Under the pieces are notes generated by a model, which was not told the origin of the DNA, did not search any database, and was given only the letters and a program-made list of their open reading frames with translations. The translations under genes and the position numbers were made by a program. A stretch of DNA of 64,000 bases from Escherichia phage ManiWeber_Bas99: sequence record PQ850618.1; one strand, written 5' to 3'. This document shows, piece after piece, positions 13,333 through 60,145 of the stretch; the first letter of the stretch is position 1; the number at the start of each line of letters is the position of its first letter.

Positions 13333-13335
13333 ACT

Positions 13336-15516: not shown

Positions 15517-15520
15517 TAAT

Positions 15521-16393: not shown

Positions 16394-16395
16394 AT

Positions 16396-16917: not shown

Positions 16918-16974
16918 AATATTGCTTATAGACTCCTTATAGATTATAATTTGTTGATCAGATATAAGGAGTCT

Positions 16975-18971: not shown

Positions 18972-18977
18972 GGAACT

Positions 18978-21716: not shown

Positions 21717-21726
21717 AGGAACGGCA

Positions 21727-23511: not shown

Positions 23512-23519
23512 GGTGATTT

Positions 23520-24164: not shown

Positions 24165-24167
24165 GAA

Positions 24168-24192
24168 AAAGGCCCATATGGGCCTTTGTTTA
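24168..24192. terminator. Bidirectional rho-independent terminator
   Basis: AAAAAGGCCCATATGGGCCTTTGTTTATTTT: palindromic GC stem with A-run upstream and T-run downstream, between convergent genes. Confidence 0.6.
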
Positions 24193-24420
24193 TTTTACGG
24201 CTTCAACCTGGACGGGTGGCGCGGAACTTGTATCAATGTCTGGCAAGTCGAAGTAATACCCCGCCATGCCAATCACGCCAACAATCGCGGCCCGTGCCAC
24301 CTTGTTGCTAATTGACTCCCCAATAAGCTTTACCAACAGGGACAAGATTTGAGACGTCAAAGCCTTTTTCAGCCTTTTGTTTTCTTCCAAATCTTTCTGC
24401 ATAACTACCACCCATGTCAA
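24190..24420 (-). CDS. Small membrane protein (weak holin candidate)
   Basis: 76 aa; TTG start; one hydrophobic segment AAIVGVIGMAGYYF; convergent with the endolysin gene. Confidence 0.3.
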   Translation of the reverse strand: MTWVVVMQKDLEENKRLKKALTSQILSLLVKLIGESISNKVARAAIVGVIGMAGYYFDLPDIDTSSAPPVQVEAVK

Positions 24421-24959
24421 CGCACATCCTGTGTCTTAACATTACCTGAAGCATCTCTTAAGGGCAGTGGATAGTAGGCCATTTGGTAGTCTGATACGCC
24501 TTCAACATGATAAAACACGATTACGTCTTTGCTGTTGATGAGCATGTTAACGACATCTGATTTATCTTCTGGAGTGAGTATGAGTGCGCCGCCTGTCCTG
24601 CTGTCTACTGCAACAGGGTATGTCTTGTCGACAAGGCCGCTGTCCAATGTATTATACCTGACAACGATTTCAGCGGCATCAACTTTTGCAATTGACATTC
24701 CGAACACAAACGAAACGACTTGGCGACCGCGATCATTCATTACGCACATCTTTTCCTTATCAAACCTTTCCTTTATCACATCATATTTGTTCCAGCAAAA
24801 TTCGAACGATTGGCCGTTGTTAAAATATCTCGTTAACACTTTGGCATTACTATTTGGTGGCGTAAACATACTTTCAGCCGCTGCACTTTTGGTGAAGAAC
24901 AAGACTGTCAGCATAGCCATGATGGTGATCAAAACAATCTTTAAAGTTTTCGATTTCAT
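24417..24959 (-). CDS. Secreted/periplasmic protein
   Basis: 180 aa; N-terminal signal peptide MKSKTLKIVLITIMAMLTVLFFTKSAAA. Confidence 0.4.
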   Translation of the reverse strand: MKSKTLKIVLITIMAMLTVLFFTKSAAAESMFTPPNSNAKVLTRYFNNGQSFEFCWNKYDVIKERFDKEKMCVMNDRGRQVVSFVFGMSIAKVDAAEIVVRYNTLDSGLVDKTYPVAVDSRTGGALILTPEDKSDVVNMLINSKDVIVFYHVEGVSDYQMAYYPLPLRDASGNVKTQDVR

Positions 24960-25039
24960 TATAATTCACCTTTTGATTACGAATATTAATAGTATAGGCC
25001 GAAGGTTTTGAAAGTAAATAAGGCGAAAGGTAAATAAAA

Positions 25040-25064
25040 GAAAAGCCGGAGATTTCCGGCTTTA
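25040..25064 (-). terminator. Rho-independent terminator (likely bidirectional)
   Basis: AAAAGCCGGAGATTTCCGGCTTTAT hairpin with flanking A/T runs, downstream of the ligase gene. Confidence 0.55.
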
Positions 25065-25135
25065 TGTATACACTGTATATTAAATTCTATAAAACGACGA
25101 GATAGATTATCCGCACCAATTATTTATCTAGTGTC

Positions 25136-26098
25136 TTAAAAATACTCCATATCGGTAATATCACGGAAGCATTTATACAAAGCAGAGCGCGGCACGTCGA
25201 CGATGCCAAAGTTAAAGAATTTATACGTTAGGTATTTATCGCGATAGTTCTCGCGATTCTCCCAAAGCATTTTACGCTCTGCCATAGGCATTGAACCAGC
25301 GGAGACGCGGAAAGGAATCATTTCACCTTTCTCATCCACATATTTTGGATTGACGACTACGAATGAGCCAAGGCATCCTTTCGCAACTAAACCTTCAGCC
25401 TCTTTTGAACGTTTGGTGCGACCCAATTCGTCAATGAATGCTTCGTTGTTGTTCTCCATCATCTCAACGAAGTCTATGATCAACCCTTCTTCATCGGTCC
25501 ACGGCTTGTCCTTCCACACATCACGTGACTTCGGCGTCGCGCGCCCATGCTTATATTTGCCCGTCCAAGACTTGCCATACAAGCCTTCATATCCAAGCTG
25601 GTCTGCTTCGATTTGCATCGCCGCGTACTGTTCCATATTTTCGATGTTTCGATATTCGAGAGCGCGAAGGAATGGGCGTCGACCATGGTTGATGAGATGT
25701 TGATTAACTTCAGCAACTCTAGCTCGATAGTTTGCATAACGCTTTTCAAAAGGCAGATCAGGGTCGCTGAAGTCATCAAACACCCACCATGTAAAGTTAG
25801 TGATTGCATCAGTATTCATGCATGCAGTATAGGCCTGTTGCATGACGTTCTTATCATTTGGATTGCCGTCGATTAGCTCTCCATCAAGTCCGTGAATTAG
25901 TTCACCCAAAAAGAGGAACTCTTTTTTGATTTGAACGTTGCGCAACGGCATGCCGGAAGTGCCCATTGGCAAGTTGTCATACGCCATTGCACGTATGCCA
26001 TCGACCTTGAATGACAGTCCGCAAGGCAGCGGCACGTCCTCGCCGCGCTCGATAATCTGCTTACGTTGGCAACCCTTCATTGGTTTTAATGCTGTCAT
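25136..26098 (-). CDS. ATP-dependent DNA ligase
   Basis: 320 aa; nucleotidyltransferase motif I KVDGIR, motif III LDGELI, motif IV-like EGLYGK. Confidence 0.7.
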   Translation of the reverse strand: MTALKPMKGCQRKQIIERGEDVPLPCGLSFKVDGIRAMAYDNLPMGTSGMPLRNVQIKKEFLFLGELIHGLDGELIDGNPNDKNVMQQAYTACMNTDAITNFTWWVFDDFSDPDLPFEKRYANYRARVAEVNQHLINHGRRPFLRALEYRNIENMEQYAAMQIEADQLGYEGLYGKSWTGKYKHGRATPKSRDVWKDKPWTDEEGLIIDFVEMMENNNEAFIDELGRTKRSKEAEGLVAKGCLGSFVVVNPKYVDEKGEMIPFRVSAGSMPMAERKMLWENRENYRDKYLTYKFFNFGIVDVPRSALYKCFRDITDMEYF

Positions 26099-26100
26099 AA

Positions 26101-26724
26101 TTATTGTCCTGTAACTTCTCTGATCACACGGTCTTCAAGTTCCAGCTTCTTTACCATTTTGCAGGAGTGCTCATAAGCCTGATCAGTCGATTTGATGAAT
26201 GTGCCGTTGTACATGACACCTTTTCGGTCTTTAATGTCTTCGTAGGCAGCTTGCGCACAGTCGGATAAGCGAAGGCCATAATCATGAGCTACGCCGGAAA
26301 GGTAATCGACTGCGGCCATGATGGTCACGTCAATATCCATGGTCTGATTCTTAGCGATTGCATCACCAAGTCGTCCAAGGGTCTTTGCCAGGCGAAGGAT
26401 AAATGAATGAGGGTGAGCACCTTTATCAGCGCAACCGCCGCCATTAATGTTTTCGATTTCAGTACCGTTTTGCGCTGCCAGGATGGTCAACACAACAAGG
26501 CAATCGCCGATGTCATCCTTAATTGCGGCCTGCAAGTCACAGATGGCCTGCTCTGTATATCCAATTTCAGGGTCAAAGAACACAAGGTCATGTAATTGAT
26601 CAACGTGGTCTGTCAACTCCCCAAACTCGCTAATAAGCTTCGGGTATTGGTCCTTAAGGTCGCAGCCTTGGATGATGTTACGGTCAGAAGCCCACTGGCG
26701 AATGTTTGCATAAATCTGGTTCAT
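26101..26724 (-). CDS. MazG-like nucleoside triphosphate pyrophosphohydrolase
   Basis: 207 aa; EFGELTDH and DIGDCLVVLTILA motifs typical of all-alpha MazG-family NTP-PPases. Confidence 0.5.
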   Translation of the reverse strand: MNQIYANIRQWASDRNIIQGCDLKDQYPKLISEFGELTDHVDQLHDLVFFDPEIGYTEQAICDLQAAIKDDIGDCLVVLTILAAQNGTEIENINGGGCADKGAHPHSFILRLAKTLGRLGDAIAKNQTMDIDVTIMAAVDYLSGVAHDYGLRLSDCAQAAYEDIKDRKGVMYNGTFIKSTDQAYEHSCKMVKKLELEDRVIREVTGQ

Positions 26725-27239
26725 TTATTTTCCTTTGATGCATTGAATTGATCGATTTTAATTTTAGCCTGATTATAAGTATCAATCAAGCTATTAACTT
26801 TCTCTTTTAATCGATTTGTTTCTGCGGCGAACTGAACAAGAAATCTGACATCCTCTTCTGATAGTCCACAGTTTCCTTCTGGGATAGAGAGGCGTCCAGT
26901 GGTCGCAGAGTCGGGCACACTCCTGAGTAACTCACGGGAGCAGCTGAGTTGCTCGCGCAACTTGACATTCCCAGACTTGTAACGAGCAATAGTGCCATCA
27001 GCAACCAGTTGCGCTTCCTGGCGACCCTTCTCATATGCCGATGCCGATTCAACCTGTAAAGTTGCAATTTGCTCTTCGAGTGCATTTATCTTGTCCTTAC
27101 GCTCATTAAGCGATGTCAGATATTGATTATACTTGGCCAGTGATGCGTTGGTTTGCTGCAGGTCTTCAACGTATGATCCAGCGGCAAACGCGCCAACAAG
27201 GGCCAGAATCTTCAGGAGCGGTACAATTCTTTCTATCAT
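26721..27239 (-). CDS. i-spanin (Rz-like)
   Basis: 172 aa; N-terminal transmembrane helix, central coiled coil, Rz-like C-terminal region; contains an embedded out-of-frame ORF. Confidence 0.55.
   Translation of the reverse strand: MIERIVPLLKILALVGAFAAGSYVEDLQQTNASLAKYNQYLTSLNERKDKINALEEQIATLQVESASAYEKGRQEAQLVADGTIARYKSGNVKLREQLSCSRELLRSVPDSATTGRLSIPEGNCGLSEEDVRFLVQFAAETNRLKEKVNSLIDTYNQAKIKIDQFNASKENK
26807..27034 (-). CDS. o-spanin (Rz1-like) embedded in the i-spanin gene
   Basis: Alternate frame wholly inside 26721-27239; from an internal Met: MRRVARKRNWLLMALLLVTSLGMSSC..., a signal-like helix with Cys (imperfect lipobox), Pro-containing mature part. Confidence 0.4.
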   Translation of the reverse strand: MRRVARKRNWLLMALLLVTSLGMSSCASNSAAPVSYSGVCPTLRPLDASLSQKETVDYQKRMSDFLFSSPQKQID

Positions 27240-27254
27240 GATGCACCAGATAAA

Positions 27255-27283
27255 TAAAAGGCCGCCAATCGGCAGCCTTGTTG
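27255..27283 (-). terminator. Rho-independent terminator (minus strand)
   Basis: Minus-strand reading AAGGCTGCCGATTGGCGGCCTTTTATTT: hairpin plus T-run after the SSB-like gene. Confidence 0.5.
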
Positions 27284-27296
27284 ATTTGATTGTCGA

Positions 27297-28157
27297 TTAA
27301 AACTCTTCTGCGTCGGTCGGAGTTTCATTGACAGGACCAGCGGCACCGCTTGCTTCTTCCTGCTTGCTGCGGTCAATGTTAACATTGCCGCCAACTACGT
27401 CGTTGTGGAATGCCTTGGCGACTTCGTACAGGCCTTTGTCCTGCACCAGACCTTCCAGCTCAAACTTCAGAACAGACCAGGTGTTGCCGTCTTTGGACTG
27501 GGATGCAGTGCCCATGCGAACGATGTTCATAAAGGTCGGCGGCGTTTTCAGACCCTGCGGAGTCTGAACTTTCTTCTGCTGCAGAGCGGTCATCAGCATG
27601 CGAGACGGCTTGATCATGGAAGAAGTCAGAGACAGCATTGCGCTACCAAATTCACCAGTTTCTTCGTTCAACAGAATTACGAAGTGGTTGCGTGTATCTG
27701 CGTAGTAAGGAGATTTCTTCTCGTGCACCTTGCCGTTTTCGTCCGGCACGAATACCTTACCGTTGATCTCAACAGCGCGGCCTGCTGCGACTTCTGCATC
27801 AACGTGCTCTTTGGTGAATTCACCTTTAAAGCCTTTATCGTCGGACTCGCGACCGCCCCAAAGAATGAAGGTGCGTTTGAATGCGCAAGGGATGATCTGC
27901 ACGCCTTTCTTGCCGTCATACAACTCACCAGTAACGGTGTTGTAAAGCATGCCAGCTTTTGCGCCAGGAACGTGTTTCGGATCATCTTCGTCGACCATAG
28001 GAGACATCTTCTGCAGTACGACGATAAAAGGAATGGCATACGCATCGGCATCGGCACCTTCAAAACCAGCGCCAAAATCGGTCATGTCGACAAAATCAGC
28101 CATAGCGGACATCTGGGTGTTTTTCACTGCAACTTCGGTGGTTTCTTTCTTAGACAT
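27297..28157 (-). CDS. ssDNA-binding protein (gp2.5-like) candidate
   Basis: 286 aa; acidic C-terminal tail ending ...TDAEEF, a hallmark of phage/bacterial SSB C-termini; sits in the replication operon. Confidence 0.4.
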   Translation of the reverse strand: MSKKETTEVAVKNTQMSAMADFVDMTDFGAGFEGADADAYAIPFIVVLQKMSPMVDEDDPKHVPGAKAGMLYNTVTGELYDGKKGVQIIPCAFKRTFILWGGRESDDKGFKGEFTKEHVDAEVAAGRAVEINGKVFVPDENGKVHEKKSPYYADTRNHFVILLNEETGEFGSAMLSLTSSMIKPSRMLMTALQQKKVQTPQGLKTPPTFMNIVRMGTASQSKDGNTWSVLKFELEGLVQDKGLYEVAKAFHNDVVGGNVNIDRSKQEEASGAAGPVNETPTDAEEF

Positions 28158-28216
28158 TTGATATTTTCCTATAGTATCAAGTTTCGTGGCAACCTGATTT
28201 CAAGATAAAGGTTAAA

Positions 28217-28774
28217 TTACTTTTTGCTTTTAGGCAAGGTTATTTTAGCTTCTTTGTATTCAAAAACGCTAATATCTTCACTAACTGGATTGCCCGCTTC
28301 CAGCTGTTCTTTTACAAACGACTTCAGTGTAGCAGAATGAACGCCTTGTTTCAACGTGGCTTCAACACCATCTTCACGCAGCGCGGCAACAATCTCTTGC
28401 GCCTGTTCGATTTCTTCGCGACCGAACTCAGCCGTGACGCTGGACTTGATCAAGCCGCCGTAACCGTTGTTGACAAGCCAATCGAAAACTTTTAATTCGT
28501 TTTCTTTCTTGATTGAAGCGTTCACCTTGGACTCGACCTTGATTTTGGTCTTGTCCTCAAGCTTGATTTCGGACACGCCAAGCTCATCCATAACGCCAGG
28601 AAGCAGAACAGTTTTGATTTCACTGATTCGCTGCTTTTGCATATCAGCTTCATCTTCAAGCTCTGTCAAAGCTTCTTGGCGTTCTGCCAGTTCAGATACT
28701 AAGCGCGCAAGGCGCTCTTGAATGCTCTCAGGAGCGACCTGCGGCAAATCATCTTCCCAATTAATATTGCTCAT
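28217..28774 (-). CDS. Hypothetical replication/recombination-associated protein
   Basis: 185 aa, coiled-coil-rich; coupled to neighbours. Confidence 0.3.
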   Translation of the reverse strand: MSNINWEDDLPQVAPESIQERLARLVSELAERQEALTELEDEADMQKQRISEIKTVLLPGVMDELGVSEIKLEDKTKIKVESKVNASIKKENELKVFDWLVNNGYGGLIKSSVTAEFGREEIEQAQEIVAALREDGVEATLKQGVHSATLKSFVKEQLEAGNPVSEDISVFEYKEAKITLPKSKK

Positions 28775-29091
28775 ATTTTACCTTCTTGCATTAGCCCTTC
28801 AACACGGGTCATTTGATAACGTTCAGGTTTCCAAGCCGCCAAAGCCTTCTCAGCGCCTTTCAATGTTTTATATGCCTTGATGCCAGGCATAATAACGGTA
28901 TTCACCCCAGCACCGTTGCCATAATCAAACTCTTTAACAACGCGGAACATCCCGTCAATTTCTTTGACCAAAAGACGTTTGAAAGCGATTGCACCAGTAG
29001 CTTCATTTTTTGTAACGTTCAAGGATGCGTACCATTTTGTATTCCTCTGTTTCGTTTCGATGAAGTAATTATGACTCATCTTCCGTGACAA
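28771..29091 (-). CDS. Hypothetical protein
   Basis: 106 aa ORF with 4-nt overlap. Confidence 0.3.
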   Translation of the reverse strand: MSRKMSHNYFIETKQRNTKWYASLNVTKNEATGAIAFKRLLVKEIDGMFRVVKEFDYGNGAGVNTVIMPGIKAYKTLKGAEKALAAWKPERYQMTRVEGLMQEGKI

Positions 29092-29109
29092 GTCAAATTA
29101 TTTTTGATA

Positions 29110-30633
29110 TTAATTCATCTTTTTGCCGTCGAGGATGTGATCAGCAAGCATAGACTTCATACTTAATGAACGCTGAATTTCTTCGTCGATGGTATCAACA
29201 CCAATAAAATCAACATACAACACGCTTGATTTTGTGCCGATTCGGTGATTTCGGTCTTCAGATTGCTTGCGCAACTCGTTGTCATAGTTGCAAGAATAAT
29301 AGATTGCCAAGTCGGCGGCGGTAAGCGTGATACCGATTCCTGCCGCTGCAGCGTGACAAACAAGCACTTGCGTCCCACCGTTCTCGACTGTGTTCTTCTG
29401 GAAGTCATCAATCAAGAACTCGCGCTGCTCTTTTGACGTCTCACCGTTATATACACCAGTGACCACTCCTTCAGACTCAAGCCAATCCTTAATCTGGTTC
29501 ATCTCTTCCTTAAAGATGGCCCAAACAATGAATTTGCGCTCTGGGTCGTCTTCCAGCACCCCTTCCACATAGTCCTTAAAGGCCGTGAATCGTGGGTTGT
29601 CTTCCATGTAGACCATCTCATCATACACCTTAACAAAGCCTGATGTAACCTGCTTCATCTTAGTGCGAGATGCGATCATCTCAAACTTAACGTTTTCTTC
29701 TTCGCCCTTGTATTCCATCAAATAGTTGTACTCATTCTTGAGTTCATCGTAGACATCGCGTTGTTTAGGCGACAGCTCGAAGTCGATAAACTTATACACC
29801 TTCTCTGGAAGGTCAGGCAAGTATTCCGCTTTTGTCGCACGAAAATAGTGCGGTTCCATCAGCCGGATAAGCTTGTCAAGGTTTTTGTACATCGGTCGGC
29901 CAAACTGGTCTTTGCGCGGCACTTGCGGAATCCCATAGCCATTGCCGCCGATTTTCTTGAGGATGGCTTGCATTTCTGGGTCGTGCGCTTCAAGTAGCAC
30001 AGTGAATTCAGAGTTGAAGGCGCGGAAAGATTTGGTGCCGAGCAAGCCTGCTTCAAGGAAGTGATATTGCATGTAAATATCCGCAGGCGAGCGCGGCAGC
30101 GGCGTGCCAGAAAGGATTCGACGGGCCTTTGCCAGCCGACCCAATTCCACGACCTTGATGGAGCGTTTTGCTGTGTTATTTTTGATGCGAGTCGATTCAT
30201 CAATGATCATCAGGCAGCGGTATTTCTTCAAGACCGACTCGATGTGTTGATAACCTACTGGTGTGTTGACGGTATCGATGTTGAATGAGAAGATGCGCGC
30301 AGGCACTTCGCCTTCAGGGTAGTGATCAGCAAACATCTTCTCCCAAAGCGCCTTGCCCTTTTTAGTCTTCATCTTGTCGTTGCCGCGCCAGTAGTGCCCA
30401 ATCCACTTGATGGAAAGGTGTTCTGGTGCTTCACGACGAATCCAGTTGGAGTGGACACCGTTTGGAGCGATGACGACCATGGCATCGAACGCGCCAGCAG
30501 TGAAGTGCTTTTCAAACTCTGCCAAAGCGGTCCAAGTTTTACCAAGACCCTGTTCCATGAAATAGGCAAAGTATTTTCTGCGGCCTGCTTTATCAAGCGC
30601 CAGAAGCTGGTGGCGCATCCCTTGTGTTTTCAT
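29110..30633 (-). CDS. SNF2-family DNA helicase/ATPase
   Basis: 507 aa; Walker A GLGKT, SNF2-type DESTRIKN box, C-terminal helicase domain. Confidence 0.75.
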   Translation of the reverse strand: MKTQGMRHQLLALDKAGRRKYFAYFMEQGLGKTWTALAEFEKHFTAGAFDAMVVIAPNGVHSNWIRREAPEHLSIKWIGHYWRGNDKMKTKKGKALWEKMFADHYPEGEVPARIFSFNIDTVNTPVGYQHIESVLKKYRCLMIIDESTRIKNNTAKRSIKVVELGRLAKARRILSGTPLPRSPADIYMQYHFLEAGLLGTKSFRAFNSEFTVLLEAHDPEMQAILKKIGGNGYGIPQVPRKDQFGRPMYKNLDKLIRLMEPHYFRATKAEYLPDLPEKVYKFIDFELSPKQRDVYDELKNEYNYLMEYKGEEENVKFEMIASRTKMKQVTSGFVKVYDEMVYMEDNPRFTAFKDYVEGVLEDDPERKFIVWAIFKEEMNQIKDWLESEGVVTGVYNGETSKEQREFLIDDFQKNTVENGGTQVLVCHAAAAGIGITLTAADLAIYYSCNYDNELRKQSEDRNHRIGTKSSVLYVDFIGVDTIDEEIQRSLSMKSMLADHILDGKKMN

Positions 30634-39227: not shown

Positions 39228-39311
39228 TTGTCCTTTGTGGGTGATATGAGAAGTATAATAGCTAAATTATTTTACAGCAACAAGTCATTTCTATTTAGTA
39301 CAGACGAAAAA

Positions 39312-39338
39312 AAGACCCACAACAAGTGTGGGTCAATT
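39312..39338 (-). terminator. Rho-independent terminator (minus strand)
   Basis: Minus-strand reading GACCCACACTTGTTGTGGGTCTTTTTTTC: 8-bp stem plus T7. Confidence 0.6.
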
Positions 39339-39362
39339 ACCGCTATATAACCGTCCTACAGG

Positions 39363-40208
39363 TTATTCCGCTTGATCACCGTCTTCAGCATCGTCGTTGG
39401 ATTCAACATCGACAAACTCGATGTGACCCATCTCTTCCAGCTTGCTCAGGTAGGAGCGAACGGAAGCGCCAAACAGTTGATCTTTAACTTTTTCGCCCAG
39501 CTCATCGATAGACTGTGCCACACCAACTTCGCCTTCTTTGATCGCCGCCAGAACGCGTCCACGGGTGGAATGCTCTTGCGGCTGGCTCAGGCCGTTGCCA
39601 GTGTAGATGAAGTGAGTGGCTTTTGCACGACGCTGACCGTTTGCCTTTTTAGCAGCCTTACGTTCTGCGATGGCTTTGCGACGTTCTTCAGCTTCTTTCT
39701 TACGCTGTTCTTTCTGCTGTTCTGCAGCTTCTTTAGCCGCAATCTTAGCAGCTTCACGCTCTGCCTTGCGTTTCGCTTTAGCTTCTTCTTTGGCCTTTTC
39801 TTTTTCGGCCTTCGCTGCAGCACGGGCTTGATCACGCTCTGCTTTCTTGGCCGCAGCCTGCTCAGCTTTCAGGCGCTTGGCTTCTTCTTTAGCCTTTGCC
39901 TTTTCGATTTCTTTTGCTGCTTTAGCGGCTTCACGCTCTGCTTTCTTAGCAGCAGCCTTTTCTGCACGCTCTTTAGCTTTCTTAGCTGCTTCTTCAGCAC
40001 GCTTCTGAGCCTTCTCATCAGCAGCCTGCTTGCGTTTCAACGCAGCTTCTTCACGCTTGGCTTGTTTTTCCTGCTCACGCTTCTGGCGTTTTTCTTCGGC
40101 TTCTTTCTTTTTAGCCAGGCGTTTTTCTTCAGCCACGCGACGACGTTCTGCTGCGGCTGCTTGTTTTTCTTCTTTAGATAATACTTTGATTGCTTCGGCC
40201 ATATTCAC
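39363..40208 (-). CDS. K/E/A-rich charged helical protein with small C-terminal globular domain
   Basis: 281 aa; about 190 aa of (A/E/K/R)-only repeats consistent with a single long alpha helix or TolA/histone-H1-like tail. Confidence 0.5.
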   Translation of the reverse strand: MNMAEAIKVLSKEEKQAAAAERRRVAEEKRLAKKKEAEEKRQKREQEKQAKREEAALKRKQAADEKAQKRAEEAAKKAKERAEKAAAKKAEREAAKAAKEIEKAKAKEEAKRLKAEQAAAKKAERDQARAAAKAEKEKAKEEAKAKRKAEREAAKIAAKEAAEQQKEQRKKEAEERRKAIAERKAAKKANGQRRAKATHFIYTGNGLSQPQEHSTRGRVLAAIKEGEVGVAQSIDELGEKVKDQLFGASVRSYLSKLEEMGHIEFVDVESNDDAEDGDQAE

Positions 40209-53860: not shown

Positions 53861-54349
53861 CCTGTGTAATGGGAGGCTTTTGTGGTTATTTACGATTCAA
53901 GGCTGTAATTTAAGAGAGCGAAAATATTATAATAATTTATCAAGATTATTGCATATTGTGGCAATCAACGTTTATACGTATTTATGACAGTTTAATCCAC
54001 TAAATAATACGGATAGAACAGTGAGGAAAATACAGCGGTGTATTTTAGTGTAAATATTGAATCAAAAATAAATAATTATGGTGCTATTATATACGCAGAT
54101 TGTTTGTAATTTATAGGATATTTTATCGTGGAGTATTGGCTAACGGTGCGTTAGCCGTGGGTCTTGGTGCTTGTGGTGTTGATGCTCAGAATTTTAATAA
54201 TGTTTTTAGTTTTAGTAATCGTAGTCAATGATGATACGTATAAGAAAATGAGAGTCACCCCTTCACAGGATATTGTACCGTGGCCCTGTGGCGCGCCGCG
54301 CCTGGGATTGCTGGTATACACTGGTGCTATTTTGCCGCGAAGGCAGTCA

Positions 54350-54685
54350 TTCATACGTATCATGACGTATCATTGGGCTATTGATTTATAAGGAAAAATA
54401 CGCTGATACGGATGATACGGATGCAAACATAATATATATAGAATTCCAGAAAATTAATTAACTCCATTTTGAATTAATTTAAATTAATTTTTTTCTACAT
54501 CCTCATACTTATACTAAACTTATATTTATACGTATTATCCGTAAGATATAAGTAAAAACAAAGACTTGCGGCAATACGGATGATACGTCATGATACGCTT
54601 CAACCAGCCAGCAGCGGCTAAGTCATTGATTTGCATAGCAAGCGGCGAAAGGGATGGATTTCTTTTATACGTATCAAACAGTACA
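54350..54685. repeat. Iteron module B: same repeat family and architecture as module A
   Basis: ACGTATCATGACGTATCAT about 54354-54373; reverse copies about 54404-54423 and 54574-54597; AT-rich core about 54424-54530; TTTTATACGTAT shared with module A. Confidence 0.7.
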
Positions 54686-54826
54686 CCACGCACCACGGTC
54701 CGTTATCCATTCAGCAATATGATTTGTGTACGTTTATAGCCATAATGAACATCAATCTGCACTTGAATATAATGTTCATCCATTGTATAATTCACACTAT
54801 TAATTTGCACTATGGGATTTTGCACT

Positions 54827-55300
54827 ATGAGTCAAGATTATGTAGCGATGCCTGAAGACTTTGAAGACCCGCGATTTGCAGAGCACAATCAGGCTTTATT
54901 CGATGAGTTCATTGACCTTGTTATTCAGGGCCATGACATGCGCGCAGCTTTTGCACTAGTATTTGGAATGGAAGTTGCAACGGATAACTACACTGGCCAG
55001 CGAATCCTTTGCACGCAACGCAATCCATACTACAAGATGCGCTTCAAAAAGCGTATGGAAGAGATGCCACTCAAGGATTTGTGGAGCGTAAAAGGTGCAA
55101 TTCACAATTTGGTTAAGCTTGTGCGTGATCCAGAAGTCGCAGCGTCAGCCAAGCTTAATGCTATTCGTGAACTGAATATCATCTACGGCATCACGATGAT
55201 TGATGAAAACGGCAATAGTAAAATGGGCCGTTCCATGGACGATTTCTACAAGGATTTTGGAGAGGCGGCCAAAGAAGGTGAGCAATTCTCCCGCCACTAG
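54827..55300 (+). CDS. Putative DNA-binding protein (possible terminase small subunit)
   Basis: ATG overlapping an 11-mer copy; about 157 aa; helix-turn-helix-like N-terminus; adjacent to iteron module B; assignment tentative. Confidence 0.3.
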   Translation: MSQDYVAMPEDFEDPRFAEHNQALFDEFIDLVIQGHDMRAAFALVFGMEVATDNYTGQRILCTQRNPYYKMRFKKRMEEMPLKDLWSVKGAIHNLVKLVRDPEVAASAKLNAIRELNIIYGITMIDENGNSKMGRSMDDFYKDFGEAAKEGEQFSRH

Positions 55301-55317
55301 CCAATTTGCACTATAAA

Positions 55318-55355
55318 ACGGCCCTAGAACACATCTTCTCCACTTCTAGGGCCAT
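55318..55355. other. Strong hairpin GGCCCTAGAA-(14)-TTCTAGGGCC
   Basis: Perfect 10-bp stem directly downstream of 54827-55300; weak T-tract on the minus strand. Confidence 0.4.
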
Positions 55356-55728
55356 CGGTAATACGACGGGGAAGGTTACAACCATAAACGCGTTAGAAAG
55401 TGTATTATTATAAGTCATCTTTTAGTCACTTTACGTAACAATTTACGACCTTCAGCCGTCCAATCGAACGACTCCACCAGCAGATTCGCACTATAACCTA
55501 AGATGATGCGCCCTTTCTCGTTATCGACCCGCCAACAAGTCTCGAATAGCATTCGATTTGCACTATTAACTATCGCCGCAACGCGCGTAGGGTAAACGCA
55601 ATTTGCACTATGGTCATAAAGGGATAAGGTGCGACCACTTCCGATGGACAACGTAGCGATGAGAATGAGCGTATTCATAAGCCACCAATTTGCACTATGA
55701 AAAGCGACCCCGAAGGGCCGCCATTCGA

Positions 55729-56355
55729 TTAGATAATCTGGAAGGTGTAGGACTTGTTGCCGAACTCGAAGTTCAAGCGCCCAGCTTCCTTAAGCTTCAT
55801 GCGGAAGCGAATGTGCTTGCTATCCGGTAATCCCAGCGCGGCGAACGCTACGCGGACCGATTTGAACTCGCCTACACCCTCGACCATGACACCGTTACGG
55901 GTAAGACGCTTTTGCGCCACTTCCTTATTATCCCAGCTTTTTGCAATACCTTCGCTATTCGAACGGCGATGGGAAGGAGTTCCATTTTGCACTACGCAAT
56001 TTGCACTATCGTTTAAACCGCTCTTAACGAAGGCTTCATATTCTTCGTCGGTCATCGCGTCGAGTTCTTCCTGGGTCGGCTCAGCCTTTTTAACGACCGC
56101 ACGCGCCTTATGCGTTTTTACATCGCTGGACACTTCCTCGCGCGACTTCGCGTCTGGGATGGGCGATTCGTTGGACGGCTCATCTAGCGCGTTTAAGGAC
56201 TCGATTAACGCGATGACGCGAGTCTCAGCGGTCCGGCGGTCCGAAAATTTCTTAATCGGCTTCGAACCGGAATTTGCATTATAAAATGCAACGAGGTCGG
56301 CGGTCTTAGTTGCGATAACGTCGCCGCTAGTCGAGAAACGATTTAAGCTAACCAT
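55729..56355 (-). CDS. Hypothetical protein in the CG-rich island
   Basis: 208 aa; strong RBS TAGGAG; codon and dinucleotide usage differ from the rest of the window; contains 11-mer copies. Confidence 0.4.
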   Translation of the reverse strand: MVSLNRFSTSGDVIATKTADLVAFYNANSGSKPIKKFSDRRTAETRVIALIESLNALDEPSNESPIPDAKSREEVSSDVKTHKARAVVKKAEPTQEELDAMTDEEYEAFVKSGLNDSANCVVQNGTPSHRRSNSEGIAKSWDNKEVAQKRLTRNGVMVEGVGEFKSVRVAFAALGLPDSKHIRFRMKLKEAGRLNFEFGNKSYTFQII

Positions 56356-56435
56356 AATAAACTCCTATTTGTTAGGGCGCTAGGCGCGAAAGAATTTTAT
56401 TAAAGCGCCGCGCACGACGCTCTAAAAATCCTCTC

Positions 56436-56720
56436 TTACGCTTCGACGAGGGAGAAGGTCTCAAATTCTTCTTCGCCCATAACGAGTAAGATATTACCGA
56501 TTTCGACCGCTTCGAAGAAATATCCGTTAACGTTTACTTCGAAGGCTTCGCGGTCCGATTCCGGTAGCGCCGCGTAAAGTTTAAAAGCCTCGGCGACCGT
56601 TACCCCACCCGCCTCGATAGTTTGGCCTACGTTCGCGGCGTAGACTTCGGATAAAATTTGTTTTACGCCGTAGTTCTCGACGATAGCGTTACGAATAGAA
56701 GAAACGTTAAGAATAGCCAT
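56436..56720 (-). CDS. Small acidic protein, island paralog A
   Basis: 94 aa; RBS AGGAG; paralog of 57355-57645 (NVNGYFFEAVEIGNILLV vs TINGFVYTITEIGGEYLAV). Confidence 0.45.
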   Translation of the reverse strand: MAILNVSSIRNAIVENYGVKQILSEVYAANVGQTIEAGGVTVAEAFKLYAALPESDREAFEVNVNGYFFEAVEIGNILLVMGEEEFETFSLVEA

Positions 56721-56744
56721 TTTAAACTCCTAGTTGGGAGAGGC

Positions 56745-56818
56745 GTTAACGACCTATTCGTTAACTCATCCCGTCCCGATATGAGTACATTATAATATAG
56801 TGTAGAAAAAAGTAAAGC
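56745..56818 (-). promoter_or_regulatory. Promoter and structured leader of paralog A (minus strand)
   Basis: Minus-strand -35 TTTACT (plus about 56811-56816), -10 TATAAT (plus about 56789-56794); leader hairpin TTAACGA-ATAGG-TCGTTAA (plus about 56746-56764). Confidence 0.5.
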
Positions 56819-56858
56819 ACTTTTTCGATAAAAATGCGATAAATTATTTTATCTTTTT

Positions 56859-56890
56859 TCTTTACTTCTTCGTACACTCGCGTATACTTG
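56859..56890 (+). promoter_or_regulatory. Promoter of paralog B
   Basis: CTTTACTTCTTCGTACACT block: -35 TTTACT, 16-bp spacer, -10 TATACT; back to back with the paralog A promoter. Confidence 0.45.
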
Positions 56891-56944
56891 TTTATATCGA
56901 GACGGGCGATGGCCCTTTCTTCTACTAGCATCGGGAGCTTTATT

Positions 56945-57247
56945 ATGACTACTTTAATCTCTTCCATCCTTACTTACGACGAAGACCGCTTAACCGTTCG
57001 CTCTCTTATCGCCGCCGTTAACGCGGAACTAGAATCTAGCGCCATTAAGGTCCGCGCGGTCGCCTTCATCGGCCTTTCCTTCGACGATATGAAGTATGCC
57101 GAACGTAGCGCCATCCGCTTCGCGAAGACCGACGACGAAGCCGTTACCCTTATCGAGACGGTTACGCCGCGCGGCGAAGCGTTAATTATCGTCGAGTATA
57201 TCGACGTAGAAGGCGATAAATCTTATAAACATTTTATCGCAGAATAA
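56945..57247 (+). CDS. Small acidic protein, island paralog B (distant)
   Basis: Internal ATG after GGGAG; about 100 aa; weaker similarity to A and C. Confidence 0.4.
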   Translation: MTTLISSILTYDEDRLTVRSLIAAVNAELESSAIKVRAVAFIGLSFDDMKYAERSAIRFAKTDDEAVTLIETVTPRGEALIIVEYIDVEGDKSYKHFIAE

Positions 57248-57256
57248 CGAAAAAGT

Positions 57257-57331
57257 GCTTTACTTCTTCGTACACTAAGACTATAATGTTTTATATCGAG
57301 AGGGGATGAGGTAGCGAATAGGTCGCTGCCC
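57257..57331 (+). promoter_or_regulatory. Promoter and structured leader of paralog C
   Basis: -35 TTTACT (about 57259-57264), 17-bp spacer, -10 TATAAT (about 57282-57287); leader hairpin GTAGCGA-ATAGG-TCGCTGC (about 57311-57329); about 80% identical to the paralog A leader. Confidence 0.5.
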
Positions 57332-57354
57332 TCCCGACCAACTAGGAGATTATT

Positions 57355-57645
57355 ATGATTACTTTAGCCGCTATCCGTTCCGCTCGCGTCGAGACTTCCG
57401 AAAACTCTAACGTATTTGGCGAAACCTTAGAGAGCGTTTATCTCTCTAACGTAGACGCAACTATCGAATCCATTTATGAGCCGATCAACTTCCTCGACCT
57501 TTACAAGTATCGCGATGAGGACATCGTGTCTTGCCGCGTAACGATCAACGGCTTCGTCTATACGATTACCGAAATCGGCGGCGAATATCTCGCGGTCCCG
57601 CAACTCGGCGGCGAAGTAACTTATTTTAAAATCGTCTCCTTATAA
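57355..57645 (+). CDS. Small acidic protein, island paralog C
   Basis: 96 aa; RBS AGGAG; paralog of 56436-56720. Confidence 0.45.
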   Translation: MITLAAIRSARVETSENSNVFGETLESVYLSNVDATIESIYEPINFLDLYKYRDEDIVSCRVTINGFVYTITEIGGEYLAVPQLGGEVTYFKIVSL

Positions 57646-57663
57646 TACCCTTCCGTTACTAAT

Positions 57664-57692
57664 AGGCCGCGCTTAGTCGCGGCTTTTCTTCG
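57664..57692 (+). terminator. Rho-independent terminator after paralog C
   Basis: GGCCGCGCTTAGTCGCGGCTTTTCTT: GC stem plus T-run. Confidence 0.55.
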
Positions 57693-57810
57693 CCCCTATC
57701 TCGGTGCGCTCCTACGCGAAAACTCCTTTATCCTTACCTTCGTCGTCGCATAATCTTCGTCGAGATGCTCCTTAGTTCGCATAACAGGTATTACGTTAAA
57801 TGGAGAACAT

Positions 57811-58095
57811 CGCGTAAGTCGTTGTTTTATATAGACACCTATATCGGACCGTTAGCGAGGGTCGCGTAAGTCGTTGTTTTATAAAGGCGCAAAACTTTCC
57901 CTTCGTTCCGAACTAAAACGAGGAATATGCCGACCCTTCGCCCGAAAATAGTACGCATGCGATATTACCGACATCTAGAATAATCCCTCCCGATATTATT
58001 ACGCGCTCAATCATTAGCTTTCGAATCATTATGCTGCATACTATTATGCGCCAAATCATTAGCCTTCGAATTGTAACGCTGGAAACTGTAACGTC
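57811..58095. repeat. Noncoding stretch dense in direct repeats
   Basis: 21-bp CGCGTAAGTCGTTGTTTTATA twice (about 57811-57831 and 57863-57883, 52 bp apart); AATCATTAGC(T/C)TTCGAAT twice (about 58008-58026 and 58053-58071); TGTAACG twice; no convincing ORF. Confidence 0.6.
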
Positions 58096-58351
58096 GATTG
58101 ATTATTGCGTTCGTGTGGTTTTTAGGACATGGGTCTTTTGGTGCGTTTTGCTACTTGATGGAATTTGCAGTACACTAATCAAAATACGACACATTTGGTC
58201 CACTAACTTTTCAAAGAAAAAGTCCTAGACAGTACCGTACTATTTTGTACCCACAGGAAATTTGCCGTACACTCCTGCGCGGCAGGCAAAAATAAAGGGC
58301 CGCACTAAGCGACCCACAACCCACGATTCACGGTTAAATCAGCAACACCCA

Positions 58352-58798
58352 CTATTCACTCTTATGGGCATCACCAAAGCCATCAGCAATCTGGCTGATC
58401 AACGACTCAATGGACACGGTTTTACCAATTGATCGAGCGGTAATAGCAAGCATATTATCAATCAAACCACGATTGACTTCACATGTTCCAGGCTTTGACT
58501 CATCTTTAGGACCACCAAAAAGCTGGTCGCGCAGACTTTCAAGAGAACGCTCAATATTTTCCAACTTCTCTTCTAAATCGGATTGGCGACGTAAAACCCA
58601 CGTCAAGTCACGGTTGCCAACTTCCAATCCATCAGAATAGCAAGGTGGAGCGTCAATTTTGATGCTGGAACCAAAAGCAATGCCGCTGCCTTTAGTATAT
58701 GTGTGGCTAATAGAATCATTTTTATTTGACATATCATTACCTTTAATATTTGGGTGATTAACAATAACTATAATAAAGCCGCATAGCGCGGCATTCAA
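58352..58798 (-). CDS. Hypothetical protein
   Basis: 148 aa ORF (possibly starting at internal MSNKND...); coiled-coil-like middle. Confidence 0.3.
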   Translation of the reverse strand: MNAALCGFIIVIVNHPNIKGNDMSNKNDSISHTYTKGSGIAFGSSIKIDAPPCYSDGLEVGNRDLTWVLRRQSDLEEKLENIERSLESLRDQLFGGPKDESKPGTCEVNRGLIDNMLAITARSIGKTVSIESLISQIADGFGDAHKSE

Positions 58799-58911
58799 AT
58801 CGGTTTGTTAATTGTAACGATTGAATTTACTTATCCAACCAATCAATAAGCGCAATCATGGCTACAACAAATACTGCACTTATTGCTAATATGATCAAAA
58901 ACATCACGAAA

Positions 58912-59148
58912 TCAACGTTCATCAATCGATACCAATTGTGCAGGGTCGCCGGATACAGTTGCGCCGATGATACCCATCTGAGAGAAAAATTCTGAATAAA
59001 CTTCCTTCCAGTACTTGCGCGCAGCTTTCTGGGCTTGACCTTTTCGCTTGTAGCTTTTACCTTGAAAGATGAAACGGTCGCTTGTCGCGCGATACTCCAC
59101 CACGCCTTCCAGCCATTGCAAGAATGCTGCTGATTCATTTTTATTCAT
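58912..59148 (-). CDS. Hypothetical protein
   Basis: 78 aa ORF. Confidence 0.3.
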   Translation of the reverse strand: MNKNESAAFLQWLEGVVEYRATSDRFIFQGKSYKRKGQAQKAARKYWKEVYSEFFSQMGIIGATVSGDPAQLVSIDER

Positions 59149-59551: not shown

Positions 59552-59645
59552 GATTCATGCCGCTGCAGCGTAAACAATTGCATAAGCAATTCCAAACAGC
59601 GCGGCAATACATACCGTGCCCCAAAATGCAAAGCGTCGTGACTCT

Positions 59646-59855
59646 TTATCCATTGTCCACCGCCCCAATATCCTTCAAGAACTTGTGCAAGTCGCCTTTC
59701 TTATTAAGCTTTTGCATAGTTTTGATATCATCAAGTGATATGCCTTGATCGCTTTGTTGTTTGTCAATGCAGACAATGCCGCCTTTCTTAGCCTTGATTG
59801 TCATGCCTTTGGCTTCAATACTTTTTACGAAATCAGACAATAATTTAATTTCCAT
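59646..59855 (-). CDS. Hypothetical protein
   Basis: 69 aa ORF. Confidence 0.3.
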   Translation of the reverse strand: MEIKLLSDFVKSIEAKGMTIKAKKGGIVCIDKQQSDQGISLDDIKTMQKLNKKGDLHKFLKDIGAVDNG

Positions 59856-60145
59856 TAGAATCTTCTCCCATATCCATAAAAATTAAACACTAATTTTGCC
59901 ATGTCATCTTGTGAAACGACACTGTAGTGTTTAGGTAAATTGCTTTCTGACAATACCTTCTGGGCTTCTTCTGCTGTCTCAAACAAAGGGATGCACCAAT
60001 TAGCTGCGTCGCCAGATTCATTGCTATCAACTTGCTTTAAGAAAACCAAGCGGTTATCTTCAGGGTCAATACCACAGATGACATATTTAGGCAGCGCCTT
60101 TGCTTTTTGGGCCTTATCAATGTCTTCAAATTTCATTTCATTCAC
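59855..60145 (-). CDS. Hypothetical protein
   Basis: 96 aa ORF. Confidence 0.3.
   Translation of the reverse strand: MNEMKFEDIDKAQKAKALPKYVICGIDPEDNRLVFLKQVDSNESGDAANWCIPLFETAEEAQKVLSESNLPKHYSVVSQDDMAKLVFNFYGYGRRF

What the first reader, a model, noticed from the sequence alone, without database searches (positions are those of the whole stretch)
57811..58095. Repeat-dense noncoding stretch at the edge of the CG-rich island
About 700 bp (roughly 57.65-58.35 kb) has no convincing ORF but carries a perfect 21-bp direct repeat spaced 52 bp apart, a second 19-bp repeat pair spaced 45 bp apart and further short repeats. Spacing near multiples of the helical repeat suggests binding sites phased on one DNA face. 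It could also be a noncoding RNA locus or a recombination site marking the island boundary.
Basis: seen in the sequence. Interest (0 to 1): 0.5.

Follow-up and report, generated by a model that had tools for sequence, protein, structure and literature searches.

The report
Untranslated end of phage terminal repeat
The repeat-rich gene-free stretch is the last ~490 bp of this E. coli phage's 3.7-kb direct terminal repeat, ending at the physical end of the packaged DNA. It is most likely a protein-binding control region for cutting and packaging the genome, which is a known kind of element that has not been studied in this phage group.

Summary
A perfect 22-nt direct repeat lies at 57810/57862, 52 bp apart. 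A 45-bp tandem pair lies at 57993-58082 (78% identical) and is built of ~15-bp sub-units. No ORF in the stretch is conserved as coding.

The window is a Wifcevirus, an E. coli myophage related to PB1. Four related records place the right end of the direct terminal repeat (DTR) at window 58138. The WFC record places it at 58219. The DTR spans 54466-58138, so the stretch is the untranslated inner end of the DTR. It lies between two convergent terminators, and the 'CG-rich island' lies inside the DTR.

- **Constrained parts:** the 22-nt repeat zone and the last 70 bp before the end diverge 3-5 times less than third codon positions.
- **Unconstrained part:** the 45-bp tandem area evolves at a neutral-like rate, and one phage lacks one unit.
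- **Structured RNA:** no evidence (Rfam, fold z-scores).
- **Origin:** no DnaA boxes or AT-rich unwinding element.

Best reading (inferred, not shown): a duplex-DNA protein-binding region for terminase cutting and end formation, with two phased IHF-like bending sites. The closest analogues are T5 terminal-repeat 'repeat region 3' and lambda cosB.

The DTR is already annotated in relatives. The element's function is unstudied. Interest is modest.

The parts
54466..58138 (.). Direct terminal repeat (DTR) of the phage, about 3.67 kb, mapped onto the window. The finding lies in its last ~490 bp.
   Evidence: The Mansfield record annotates a PhageTerm-predicted DTR at 1-3673 (PMC6753283). Its left end aligns to window 54466. 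Its right end...GGGTCTTT|TGGTGCG, aligns to 58138. The WFH, Ro157lw and SP13 records, which carry both DTR copies, end at the same base. The WFC record ends 81 bp later, at 58219.
56006..58008 (.). Core of the compositional island. CpG o/e is about 2.1, TpA about 1.3 and CA/TG about 0.3. The broader CpG-rich zone is ~55400-58112. The 22-nt repeats lie inside it, and the 15-bp array sits on its right edge.
   Evidence: The maximum-scoring dinucleotide-model segment is 56006-58008. CA+TG counts are 1-6 per 100 bp in the noncoding part 57601-58000, against 10-20 per 100 bp in 58001-59000.
57666..57690 (+). Rho-independent terminator closing the plus-strand DTR genes (GCCGCG-CTTAGT-CGCGGC-TTTTCTT). 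It is the left limit of the gene-free stretch.
   Evidence: Read from the sequence. A terminator is annotated at the homologous position in Mansfield (3200-3224) and WFC (3230-3250). pi = 0.007 over 57670-57699.
57810..57834 (+). Repeat R1a, copy 1 of the 22/25-nt direct repeat. Its core read on the minus strand is AAACAA-NNNN-TTA, an IHF-like match (8 of 9 consensus positions).
   Evidence: pi = 0.025.
57862..57886 (+). Repeat R1b, copy 2, 52 bp from copy 1.
   Evidence: pi = 0.012. The 52-bp spacing is unchanged in all aligned genomes and in the metagenomic contigs.
57993..58113 (+). Array of about 8 degenerate 14-16-bp units (AATCATTAKC...CG type). It includes the 45-bp tandem pair 57993-58082. 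The upstream five units are variable; the last three (58069-58113) are nearly invariant.
   Evidence: Divergence over 57985-58068 is 0.155-0.167, similar to third codon positions. Bas100 lacks exactly 45 bp.
58069..58138 (.). Nearly invariant last 70 bp of the DTR, ending at the mapped right genome end (cut between 58138 and 58139).
   Evidence: Divergence is 0.03-0.04, against 0.09-0.16 at third codon positions. pi = 0.015-0.022 over 58090-58149. End position.
58139..58296 (.). Conserved gene-free DNA on the unique side of the DTR end. It holds a 13-nt direct repeat TTTGC(A/C)GTACACT at 58164 and 58261. It also holds a near-palindrome ACTTTTC-AAA-GAAAAAGT around 58207-58226, which contains the alternative WFC end at 58219.
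   Evidence: (divergence 0.03-0.05).
58297..58315 (-). Rho-independent terminator closing the minus-strand genes of the unique region. It is the right limit of the gene-free stretch. Its stem resembles the 57666 terminator in inverted orientation.
   Evidence: searches (7-pair stem plus T run; inverted repeat I1), and the WFC annotation at 3862-3880.

Best explanation
The stretch is the untranslated inner end of the phage's 3.67-kb direct terminal repeat. It works as double-stranded DNA that proteins bind, not as a gene or an RNA.

**Proposed mechanism (inferred).** During packaging from concatemers, the terminase forms the right genome end by cutting at 58138|58139. The terminase consists of the small subunit encoded 3 kb to the left in the same repeat, plus the large subunit. 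The nearly invariant 70 bp before the cut and the conserved ~150 bp after it carry the cutting and recognition signal. The degenerate 15-bp array (57993-58113) offers repeated low-specificity contacts for the ring-shaped small terminase. The two conserved 22-nt repeats, five helical turns apart, are bending sites for an architectural protein, most likely host IHF, that shape the complex.

**Shown.**
- The position of the stretch relative to the mapped end.
- The absence of conserved coding or structured RNA.
- The pattern of sequence constraint.

**Inferred.**
- Which proteins bind.
- That binding serves end formation.
- The direction of packaging.
For: **Position.**
- The window is a Wifcevirus, 91-95% identical to 28 phage records.
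- The right DTR end maps to 58138 in four records from different laboratories (Mansfield, WFH, Ro157lw, SP13).
- That is 25 bp beyond the 15-bp array and 255-330 bp beyond the 22-nt repeats.
- The WFC record's two terminal copies are identical over 3784 bp, so the repeat is real.
- The DTR is reported in the literature (PMC6753283; PMC6563267).

**Constraint.**
- Against five relatives, divergence is 0.017-0.04 in the repeat zone 57790-57910.
- It is 0.03-0.04 in the last 70 bp of the DTR.
- It is 0.09-0.16 at third codon positions of DTR genes.
- Across 19 genomes, pi is 0.047 for the gene-free stretch against 0.16-0.20 at third positions of the two flanking genes.
- There are no indels over ~500 bp in 22 genomes, apart from one 45-bp unit in Bas100 and a 1-bp deletion in RCIP0319.

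**Not a gene, not an RNA.**

**Small terminase.** It is encoded in the same DTR at 54812-55300. It matches the solved decameric small terminase of Pbunavirus E217 (PDB 7UXE, E = 6e-34; PMC9611059).

**The 22-nt repeat core.**
- AAGTCGTTGTTTT recurs, at up to 1 mismatch, only at 2259 and 54555. Four sites are seen against 0.23 expected.
- Both extra sites lie in iteron/AT-rich regulatory modules, and one of those modules contains the left DTR end.
- Read on the other strand, all four sites are AAACAA-NNNN-TTR.
- Every difference among the four sites and among phages falls on an N or R position.
Against: - No binding, cutting or packaging data exist for any Wifcevirus.
- E217 small terminase showed no appreciable DNA binding in vitro (PMC9611059).
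- 8-of-9 matches to the IHF consensus are common: 98 in the window, 1.5 per kb. The T at consensus position 3 is an A in all four sites.
It may be dispensable.
- The left and right cut sites share no motif, and the iterons at the left boundary are absent here.
- The WFC record places the end 81 bp further right.
- All comparison genomes are 88-98% identical, so the constraint estimates rest on few substitutions. The two flanking genes are mosaic, which inflates the contrast.
Confidence: 0.45

Rival explanations
1. **T5-like DNA-entry control.** The stretch would be a cis-acting pause or stop signal. It would hold the terminal repeat with its early genes in the cell before the rest of the genome enters, like the proposed injection stop signal in the untranslated 'repeat region 3' of the phage T5 terminal repeat. 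This could coexist with a packaging role.
For: **Same layout as the T5 left terminal repeat.**
- Small orphan genes transcribed in both directions from sigma-70-type promoters.
- Terminators, then an untranslated repeat region lying mostly inside the repeat and overrunning its end.
- The overrun is 270 bp in T5 and ~210 bp here.
- Minus-strand genes of the unique region follow.

**Other parallels.**
- T5 also has 13-15-bp direct repeats (DRD) and elements spaced 52 bp apart.
- T5 repeat regions are reported as more conserved than neighbouring ORFs, as seen here.
- The T5 terminal repeat is CpG-enriched relative to the next 20 kb (o/e 1.0-1.6 against 0.4-1.0). The island here shows a similar enrichment.
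Against: - There are no DnaA boxes at up to 1 mismatch in 57646-58351, whereas paired DnaA boxes are the conserved hallmark proposed for T5.
- The many palindromes and long inverted repeats of T5 are absent. Only a few short inverted repeats are present, and no single-strand fold is better than shuffles.
- There is no sequence similarity to T5.
- Two-step transfer is known only for T5-like siphoviruses, and its cis site is itself unproven.
- The compositional island covers only the right 2-2.7 kb of the repeat, not the left 0.9 kb that would enter first if the left end leads.
Confidence: 0.12
2. **Transcriptional or regulatory spacer.** The 22-nt repeats would be operator or architectural sites for a phage or host regulator that also acts at the two iteron modules. 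The stretch would insulate the convergent early (DTR) and unique-region transcription units. Its proximity to the DNA end would be incidental.
For: - The stretch lies exactly between two convergent terminators with related stems.
- The repeat core recurs only in two modules upstream of operons. One is at 2220-2520, before the DUF2213 protein and major capsid genes. The other is at 54340-54600, before the small terminase gene.
- Some relatives carry an extra 210-nt gene, annotated as a transcriptional regulator in F13, immediately upstream at 57636-57640.
Against: - There is no gene start or credible promoter within the stretch for such sites to regulate.
- The TACGGATGATACG iterons that accompany the core in the other two modules are absent here.
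- This reading does not explain the near-invariance of the 70 bp abutting the mapped DNA end.
Confidence: 0.18
3. **Replication origin.** The direct repeats would be iterons for an initiator protein.
For: Direct repeats lie in conserved gene-free DNA, and 52-bp phasing is typical of cooperative binding.
Against: - There are only two copies of the 22-nt repeat.
- There is no AT-rich unwinding element: GC is 0.42-0.47 across the stretch.
- There are no DnaA boxes.
- No replication gene is adjacent.
- The modules at 2220-2520 and 54340-54600 are much better origin candidates, with multiple 9-bp-phased iterons flanking ~100 bp of AT-rich DNA.
Confidence: 0.07
4. **A small RNA or micro-protein gene.**
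For: - Mansfield and kaset annotators called 31-39-codon ORFs here.
- ORF 57879-57974 (minus strand, 31 aa) is intact in all 19 genomes.
Against: - The Mansfield ORF (57839-57958) loses its start codon in three phages.
- The ORFs at 57913-58059 and 58031-58228 carry stops or frameshifts in relatives.
- Nearly all substitutions are non-synonymous.
- There is no Rfam family, and fold z-scores are +1.33 and +0.30.
- Only weak promoter-like matches are present.
Confidence: 0.06
5. **Function-less leftover.** Local duplications would have arisen in spacer DNA carried along with the acquired island.
For: The 45-bp tandem area evolves about as fast as third codon positions, and one unit is lost in Bas100.
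Against: - The rest of the stretch is 3-5 times more conserved than third codon positions.
- It is indel-free apart from the 45-bp unit lost in Bas100 and a 1-bp deletion in RCIP0319.
- It is retained full-length in all 28 records, while neighbouring genes are swapped for other alleles.
Confidence: 0.08

Closest known systems
Untranslated 'repeat region 3' at the inner end of the phage T5 terminal repeat (candidate injection stop signal; Davison, bioRxiv 10.1101/866236; GenBank AY587007 annotation)
   Same: - Gene-free and repeat-dense.
- Lies mostly inside a long direct terminal repeat and overruns its end by a couple of hundred bp.
- Preceded by terminators of small early genes and followed by minus-strand genes of the unique region.
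- Contains ~15-bp direct repeats and elements spaced 52 bp apart.
- Better conserved than neighbouring ORFs.
- The terminal repeat is CpG-enriched.
   Different: - 0.7 kb here against 1.2 kb in T5.
- No DnaA boxes, and no nest of palindromes or long inverted repeats.
- No sequence similarity.
- The host phage is a PB1-like myovirus with no evidence of two-step DNA transfer.
- The T5 element's own function is still a hypothesis.
Phage lambda cos region (cosQ-cosN-cosB: three 16-bp small-terminase sites R1-R3 with an IHF bending site I1). This comparison rests on my own knowledge of lambda; it was not checked here.
   Same: - An array of ~15-16-bp repeated elements lies within ~150 bp of the terminase cutting site.
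- It is accompanied by an IHF-type bending motif.
- It acts as duplex DNA.
   Different: - Lambda makes 12-nt cohesive ends, not a 3.7-kb terminal repeat.
- The units here are degenerate and partly unconstrained.
- The IHF-like sites are 255-330 bp from the cut and match only 8 of 9 consensus positions.
- The small terminase is of the E217 decamer type and unrelated to gpNu1.
- Binding was not tested.
T7-type concatemer junction (short-repeat arrays flanking the 160-bp terminal repeat; pac elements). This comparison rests on my own knowledge; it was not checked here.
   Same: - Exact, non-permuted terminal repeats with sequence-specific ends.
- Arrays of short direct repeats lie next to the repeat boundary.
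   Different: - The repeat is 3.7 kb against 160 bp.
- There is no phage RNA polymerase promoter here.
- The arrays lie inside the repeat, not on both flanks.

Membership tests
Boundary of a phage direct terminal repeat (fixed genome end) | The same sequence is present at both ends of the linear virion genome | tested here: met
   The two terminal copies in the WFC record are identical over 3784 bp. The WFH, Ro157lw and SP13 records also carry two places for this region.
Boundary of a phage direct terminal repeat (fixed genome end) | A reproducible end position at single-base resolution | tested here: met
   Four records end at the base homologous to window 58138. One record, WFC, ends at 58219.
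Boundary of a phage direct terminal repeat (fixed genome end) | Read-start peaks and doubled coverage in sequencing reads of this very phage | not testable with these tools
   No reads are available. This rests on the PhageTerm result for Mansfield (PMC6753283).
cosB-like small-terminase binding array | Repeated elements of one family next to the cutting site | tested here: inconclusive
   About 8 degenerate 14-16-bp units lie 25-145 bp from the end. TRF scores them weakly, and five of the units evolve at a neutral-like rate.
cosB-like small-terminase binding array | Sequence-specific binding by the small terminase | not testable with these tools
   A small terminase homologue is present (7UXE, E = 6e-34). 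The E217 protein bound DNA poorly in vitro.
IHF binding site | Match to WATCAANNNNTTR with an A/T-rich 5' flank | tested here: inconclusive
   Both copies match 8 of 9 positions (AAACAACGACTTA) with an A/T-rich 5' flank. Variation falls only at N or R positions. Such matches occur 1.5 times per kb by chance.
T5-type injection stop region | Untranslated repeat region at the inner end of the terminal repeat, straddling its boundary | tested here: met
   compared.
T5-type injection stop region | Paired DnaA boxes in long inverted repeats | tested here: not met
   No TTWTNCACA match at up to 1 mismatch in 57646-58351. No long inverted repeats.
T5-type injection stop region | Two-step DNA transfer | not testable with these tools
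   Requires infection experiments.
Iteron-type replication origin | Three or more iterons beside an AT-rich unwinding element, usually near a replication gene | tested here: not met
   Two copies only. GC is 0.42-0.47. Neighbouring proteins have no known family.
Structured noncoding RNA | Rfam match, or folding energy or covariation beyond chance, with promoter and terminator | tested here: not met
   No hit at gathering threshold. The best weak hit has E = 0.45 and lies on the terminator. Fold z-scores are +1.33 and +0.30.

The most novel reading that the evidence does not exclude
The terminal repeat of these PB1-like coliphages would be a miniature T5-style 'pre-early' module. A ~2-kb block of DNA is almost purged of CA/TG steps and loaded with CpG and TpA, in coding and noncoding parts alike. 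It ends in a conserved repeat region that both marks the genome end and stages DNA entry or protects the first-entering DNA. The odd composition would then be a DNA-level adaptation, for example avoidance of a nuclease active at the start of infection. The repeat stretch would be the cis site where that stage ends.
Probability: 0.1. Interest if true: 0.7.

Novelty: new member of a known kind. Interest (0 to 1): 0.33.

Why it matters
Wifceviruses are candidate therapeutic and biocontrol phages, reported to replicate unusually fast, and their biology is largely unexplored (PMC11990801).

- **Practical use.** Knowing that this conserved gene-free stretch sits at the genome end gives a defined target for several tasks. 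These are engineering and rebooting the genome, correct genome orientation in annotation, and testing how a decameric E217-type small terminase recognises DNA. That recognition question is open, because the E217 protein bound DNA poorly in vitro.
- **Comparative value.** The T5 parallel suggests that long terminal repeats of unrelated phages converge on one layout. That layout is early genes, then terminators, then an untranslated repeat region that straddles the repeat end. They also share a CpG enrichment. This would make the poorly understood T5 element comparable in a second, smaller system.

Tried and rejected
- **More distant relatives.**
  - Protein-seeded scans of IMG/VR with both flanking genes returned only Wifcevirus contigs.
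  - Exact-pattern scans of IMG/VR and the metagenome collection with the repeat motif returned about 140 hits. Only known or 94-95% identical Wifcevirus contigs carried the 52-bp pair. The rest were single chance matches.
  - Covariation-grade comparison was therefore not possible.
- **Function of neighbouring DTR proteins.** Pfam gave nothing. PHROGs gave only two families of unknown function.
- **Related genera.** The region after the small terminase gene in Serratia phage Spe5P4 has different repeats and probably small membrane-protein genes, so it is not an analogue. E217 has only ~170 bp there.
- **Literature.** The E217 terminase paper (PMC10026623) is not held.
- **Sigma-70 promoter reading of the 22-nt repeat.** No -10 element lies at 16-18 bp from TTGTTT in either copy, and the scan found none.
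- **Hairpin or cruciform at the end, as in T7-type models.** No single-strand DNA fold is better than shuffles.
- **Shared motif at the left and right cut sites.** None was seen.
- **Flanking-gene contrast.** I first read the low diversity relative to the flanking genes as strong selection. That contrast is partly inflated by allele mosaicism in those genes. I replaced it with third-position divergence across nine genes.

Full report
**What is in the sequence.**
The perfect direct repeat is real. TCGCGTAAGTCGTTGTTTTATA lies at 57810-57831 and 57862-57883, 52 bp apart, and extends to 25 nt at 96% identity. It has no other match in the 64-kb window at up to three mismatches, with none expected from shuffles.

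The second pair is a 45-bp tandem duplication, 57993-58037 and 58038-58082, 78% identical. Its best-matching core is 18 nt with one mismatch. It is built of roughly 15-bp sub-units (TRF period 15, weak). By eye these continue to about 58113, giving about eight degenerate units.

The stretch is repeat-dense relative to the window. It holds 64-106 nt of repeated 10-mers against a mean of 17, but several other places score higher.

Only the 52-bp spacing fits the helical repeat (4.95 turns). 45 bp and 15 bp do not.

**Where the window comes from, and what the stretch abuts.**
The region is 91-95% identical to 28 phage records of the genus Wifcevirus, which are PB1-like E. coli and Shigella myophages.

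The Mansfield record annotates a PhageTerm-predicted direct terminal repeat (DTR) at 1-3673 (PMC6753283). Korf et al. report a ~3.7-kb terminal repeat for WFC and WFH (PMC6563267).

Mapping these onto the window gives the following.
- The left DTR end is at 54466.
- The right end is at 58138 (...GGGTCTTT|TGGTGCG) in Mansfield, and at the ends of the WFH, Ro157lw and SP13 records.
- The WFC record carries two identical 3784-bp copies and ends 81 bp further on, at 58219.

The finding (57811-58095) is therefore the untranslated inner end of the DTR, that is, the last few hundred bases of packaged DNA at the right genome end. It lies between a plus-strand terminator (57666-57690) and a minus-strand terminator (58297-58315) with related stems.

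**The island.**
CpG observed/expected is about 2.1 over ~55.4-58.1 kb, against 1.1 for the window.

It is more than CpG richness. CA/TG steps fall to about 0.3 of expectation and TpA rises to 1.3. CTAG is 8.6-fold and TTCGAA 10-fold over-represented relative to the rest of the window.

The best-scoring segment under a dinucleotide model is 56006-58008. The bias is as strong in the gene-free part 57601-58000 as in the genes on both strands. It is therefore a property of the DNA, not of codon usage. The 22-nt repeats lie inside the island, and the 15-bp array sits on its right edge.

**Not a gene, not a structured RNA.**
Across 19 genomes:
- the ORF that Mansfield annotates (57839-57958) loses its start codon in three;
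- the ORFs at 57913-58059 and 58031-58228 acquire stops or frameshifts;
- substitutions are almost all non-synonymous.

No Rfam family reaches threshold. RNA folds of either strand are no better than shuffles (z +1.33 and +0.30). Single-strand DNA folds around the repeats and the end are unremarkable. Promoter-like matches in the stretch are weak and not above chance.

**Constraint.**
The stretch is present full-length in all 28 records. It is free of indels over ~500 bp in 22 aligned genomes, apart from a 1-bp deletion in RCIP0319 and one exact 45-bp unit missing in Bas100.

Diversity across 19 genomes is 0.047 in the gene-free stretch, against 0.16-0.20 at third codon positions of the two flanking genes. 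Those genes are mosaic, which inflates the contrast. I therefore compared five genomes over nine genes.

| Segment | Divergence |
|---|---|
| Third codon positions of DTR genes | mostly 0.09-0.16 |
| 22-nt repeat zone, 57790-57910 | 0.017-0.04 |
| Last 70 bp of the DTR | 0.03-0.04 |
| Unique-side gene-free DNA | 0.03-0.05 |
| Variable part of the array, 57985-58068 | 0.155-0.167 |

The 22-nt repeats and the DNA around the end are therefore constrained. The 45-bp tandem area is not. The perfect identity of the two 22-nt copies is not general, because most relatives have a C at 57821 in copy 1.

**What the 22-nt repeat resembles.**
Its core AAGTCGTTGTTTT recurs, at up to one mismatch, only at 2259 (+) and 54555 (-). 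That is four sites against 0.23 expected.

Both extra sites sit in paralogous, quasi-palindromic modules. Each module is made of TACGGATGATACG iterons around ~100 bp of AT-rich DNA. One module lies upstream of the head operon (DUF2213 protein and major capsid protein). The other contains the left DTR end and lies upstream of the small terminase gene.

Read on the other strand, all four sites are AAACAA-NNNN-TTR. That matches 8 of 9 positions of the IHF consensus, with an A/T-rich 5' flank. Every difference among sites and phages falls on an N or R position.

This is a lead, not proof. Such matches occur 1.5 times per kb. There are no DnaA boxes in the stretch.

**Mechanism.**
The small terminase is encoded in the same DTR (54812-55300). 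It is homologous to the decameric small terminase of Pbunavirus E217 (7UXE, E = 6e-34; PMC9611059).

I infer that the stretch is a duplex-DNA assembly site for end formation.
- The invariant DNA spanning 58069-58300 carries the cutting signal.
- The degenerate 15-bp array offers repeated contacts for the terminase ring.
- The two phased IHF-like sites bend the DNA.

Position and constraint are shown. Binding, cutting and packaging direction are inferred.

The main caveats are these.
- The E217 protein bound DNA poorly in vitro.
- The two cut sites share no motif.
- One record places the end 81 bp away.
- Comparative depth is limited to one genus.

**Comparison with known systems.**
The closest layout is the T5 left terminal repeat.
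- Small early genes and terminators come first.
- An untranslated 1.2-kb repeat region follows. It overruns the repeat end by 270 bp and has ~15-bp direct repeats and 52-bp-spaced elements.
- Minus-strand unique genes come next.

The T5 terminal repeat is also CpG-enriched relative to the next 20 kb. However, the T5 hallmarks of paired DnaA boxes in long inverted repeats and many palindromes are absent here. The stretch may work like the T5 element, but it is not a member of that family.

Lambda cosB (terminase sites plus an IHF site beside the cut) is the functional analogue for the packaging reading. That comparison rests on my own knowledge of lambda and was not checked here.

**Verdict.**
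The RNA idea is not supported. The 'island boundary' is really the terminal-repeat end.

The DTR is already annotated in relatives, but the function of its untranslated end has not been studied. I rate it a new member of a known kind, of modest interest. The unexplained CA/TG-poor composition of the DTR is the more surprising feature and deserves its own follow-up.

Noticed in passing
window 56006-58008 (broader 55400-58112): The 'CG-rich island' is depleted about 3-fold in CA/TG steps (o/e ~0.3). It is enriched in CpG (~2.1) and TpA (~1.3), and CTAG is 8.6-fold and TTCGAA 10-fold over-represented. The bias is equal in genes on both strands and in noncoding DNA, so it is a DNA-level bias. Even the predicted -35 boxes there are TTTACT rather than TTGACA. 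No explanation was found.
   Followed up: partly
L034 (phage T5, AY587007) 1-10139 against 10140-30000: The T5 left terminal repeat is also CpG-enriched (o/e 1.0-1.6 per kb) relative to the adjacent unique region (0.4-1.0), without the CA/TG depletion. This may be a shared property of terminal repeats that carry the earliest genes.
   Followed up: partly
window 2220-2520 and 54340-54600: These are two paralogous, quasi-palindromic modules. Each has clusters of TACGGATGATACG (10 matches against 1.0 expected) at 9-bp phasing, flanking ~100 bp of AT-rich DNA, and each holds one copy of the AAGTYKTTGTTTT core. One lies upstream of the head operon. The other contains the left DTR end (54465|54466) in its AT-rich centre and lies upstream of the small terminase gene. 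They are candidates for late promoter/operator regions, an origin, or the left packaging signal.
   Followed up: partly
window 56727-56849 against 57227-57350: An inverted duplication at ~77-78% identity contains the divergent sigma-70-like promoters TTTACT-N16/17-TATAAT (56816-56789 minus strand; 57259-57287 plus strand). These drive the two DTR gene sets.
   Followed up: no
window 57636-57640; 56400-56700; 57400-57600; 58800-58900; 59600-59900: These are mosaic hot spots among Wifceviruses. A ~230-bp insertion carrying a 210-nt gene, annotated as a transcriptional regulator in F13, is present in Ro157lw, SP13, FEC19, F13, ECML-117 and Eco4M-7. Whole-gene allele replacements occur at the other intervals. 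The gene-free stretch between them is never replaced.
   Followed up: partly
window 58164-58176 and 58261-58273; 58207-58226: On the unique side of the DTR end there is a 13-nt direct repeat TTTGC(A/C)GTACACT, 97 bp apart. There is also a near-palindrome ACTTTTC-AAA-GAAAAAGT, which contains the alternative DTR end used in the WFC record. Both are conserved in relatives.
   Followed up: no
window 39300-39900: This is the most repeat-dense 700-bp interval of the window by exact 10-mer reuse (up to 296 nt covered). It was not examined and is probably a coding repeat.
   Followed up: no
window 54812-55300: The small terminase gene lies inside the terminal repeat, 346 bp from the left genome end and far from the head genes. 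This mirrors E217, where the small and large terminase genes are ~58 kb apart. Pbunaviruses are described as terminally redundant and circularly permuted, whereas Wifceviruses have fixed ends. Related terminases apparently support different end types.
   Followed up: partly
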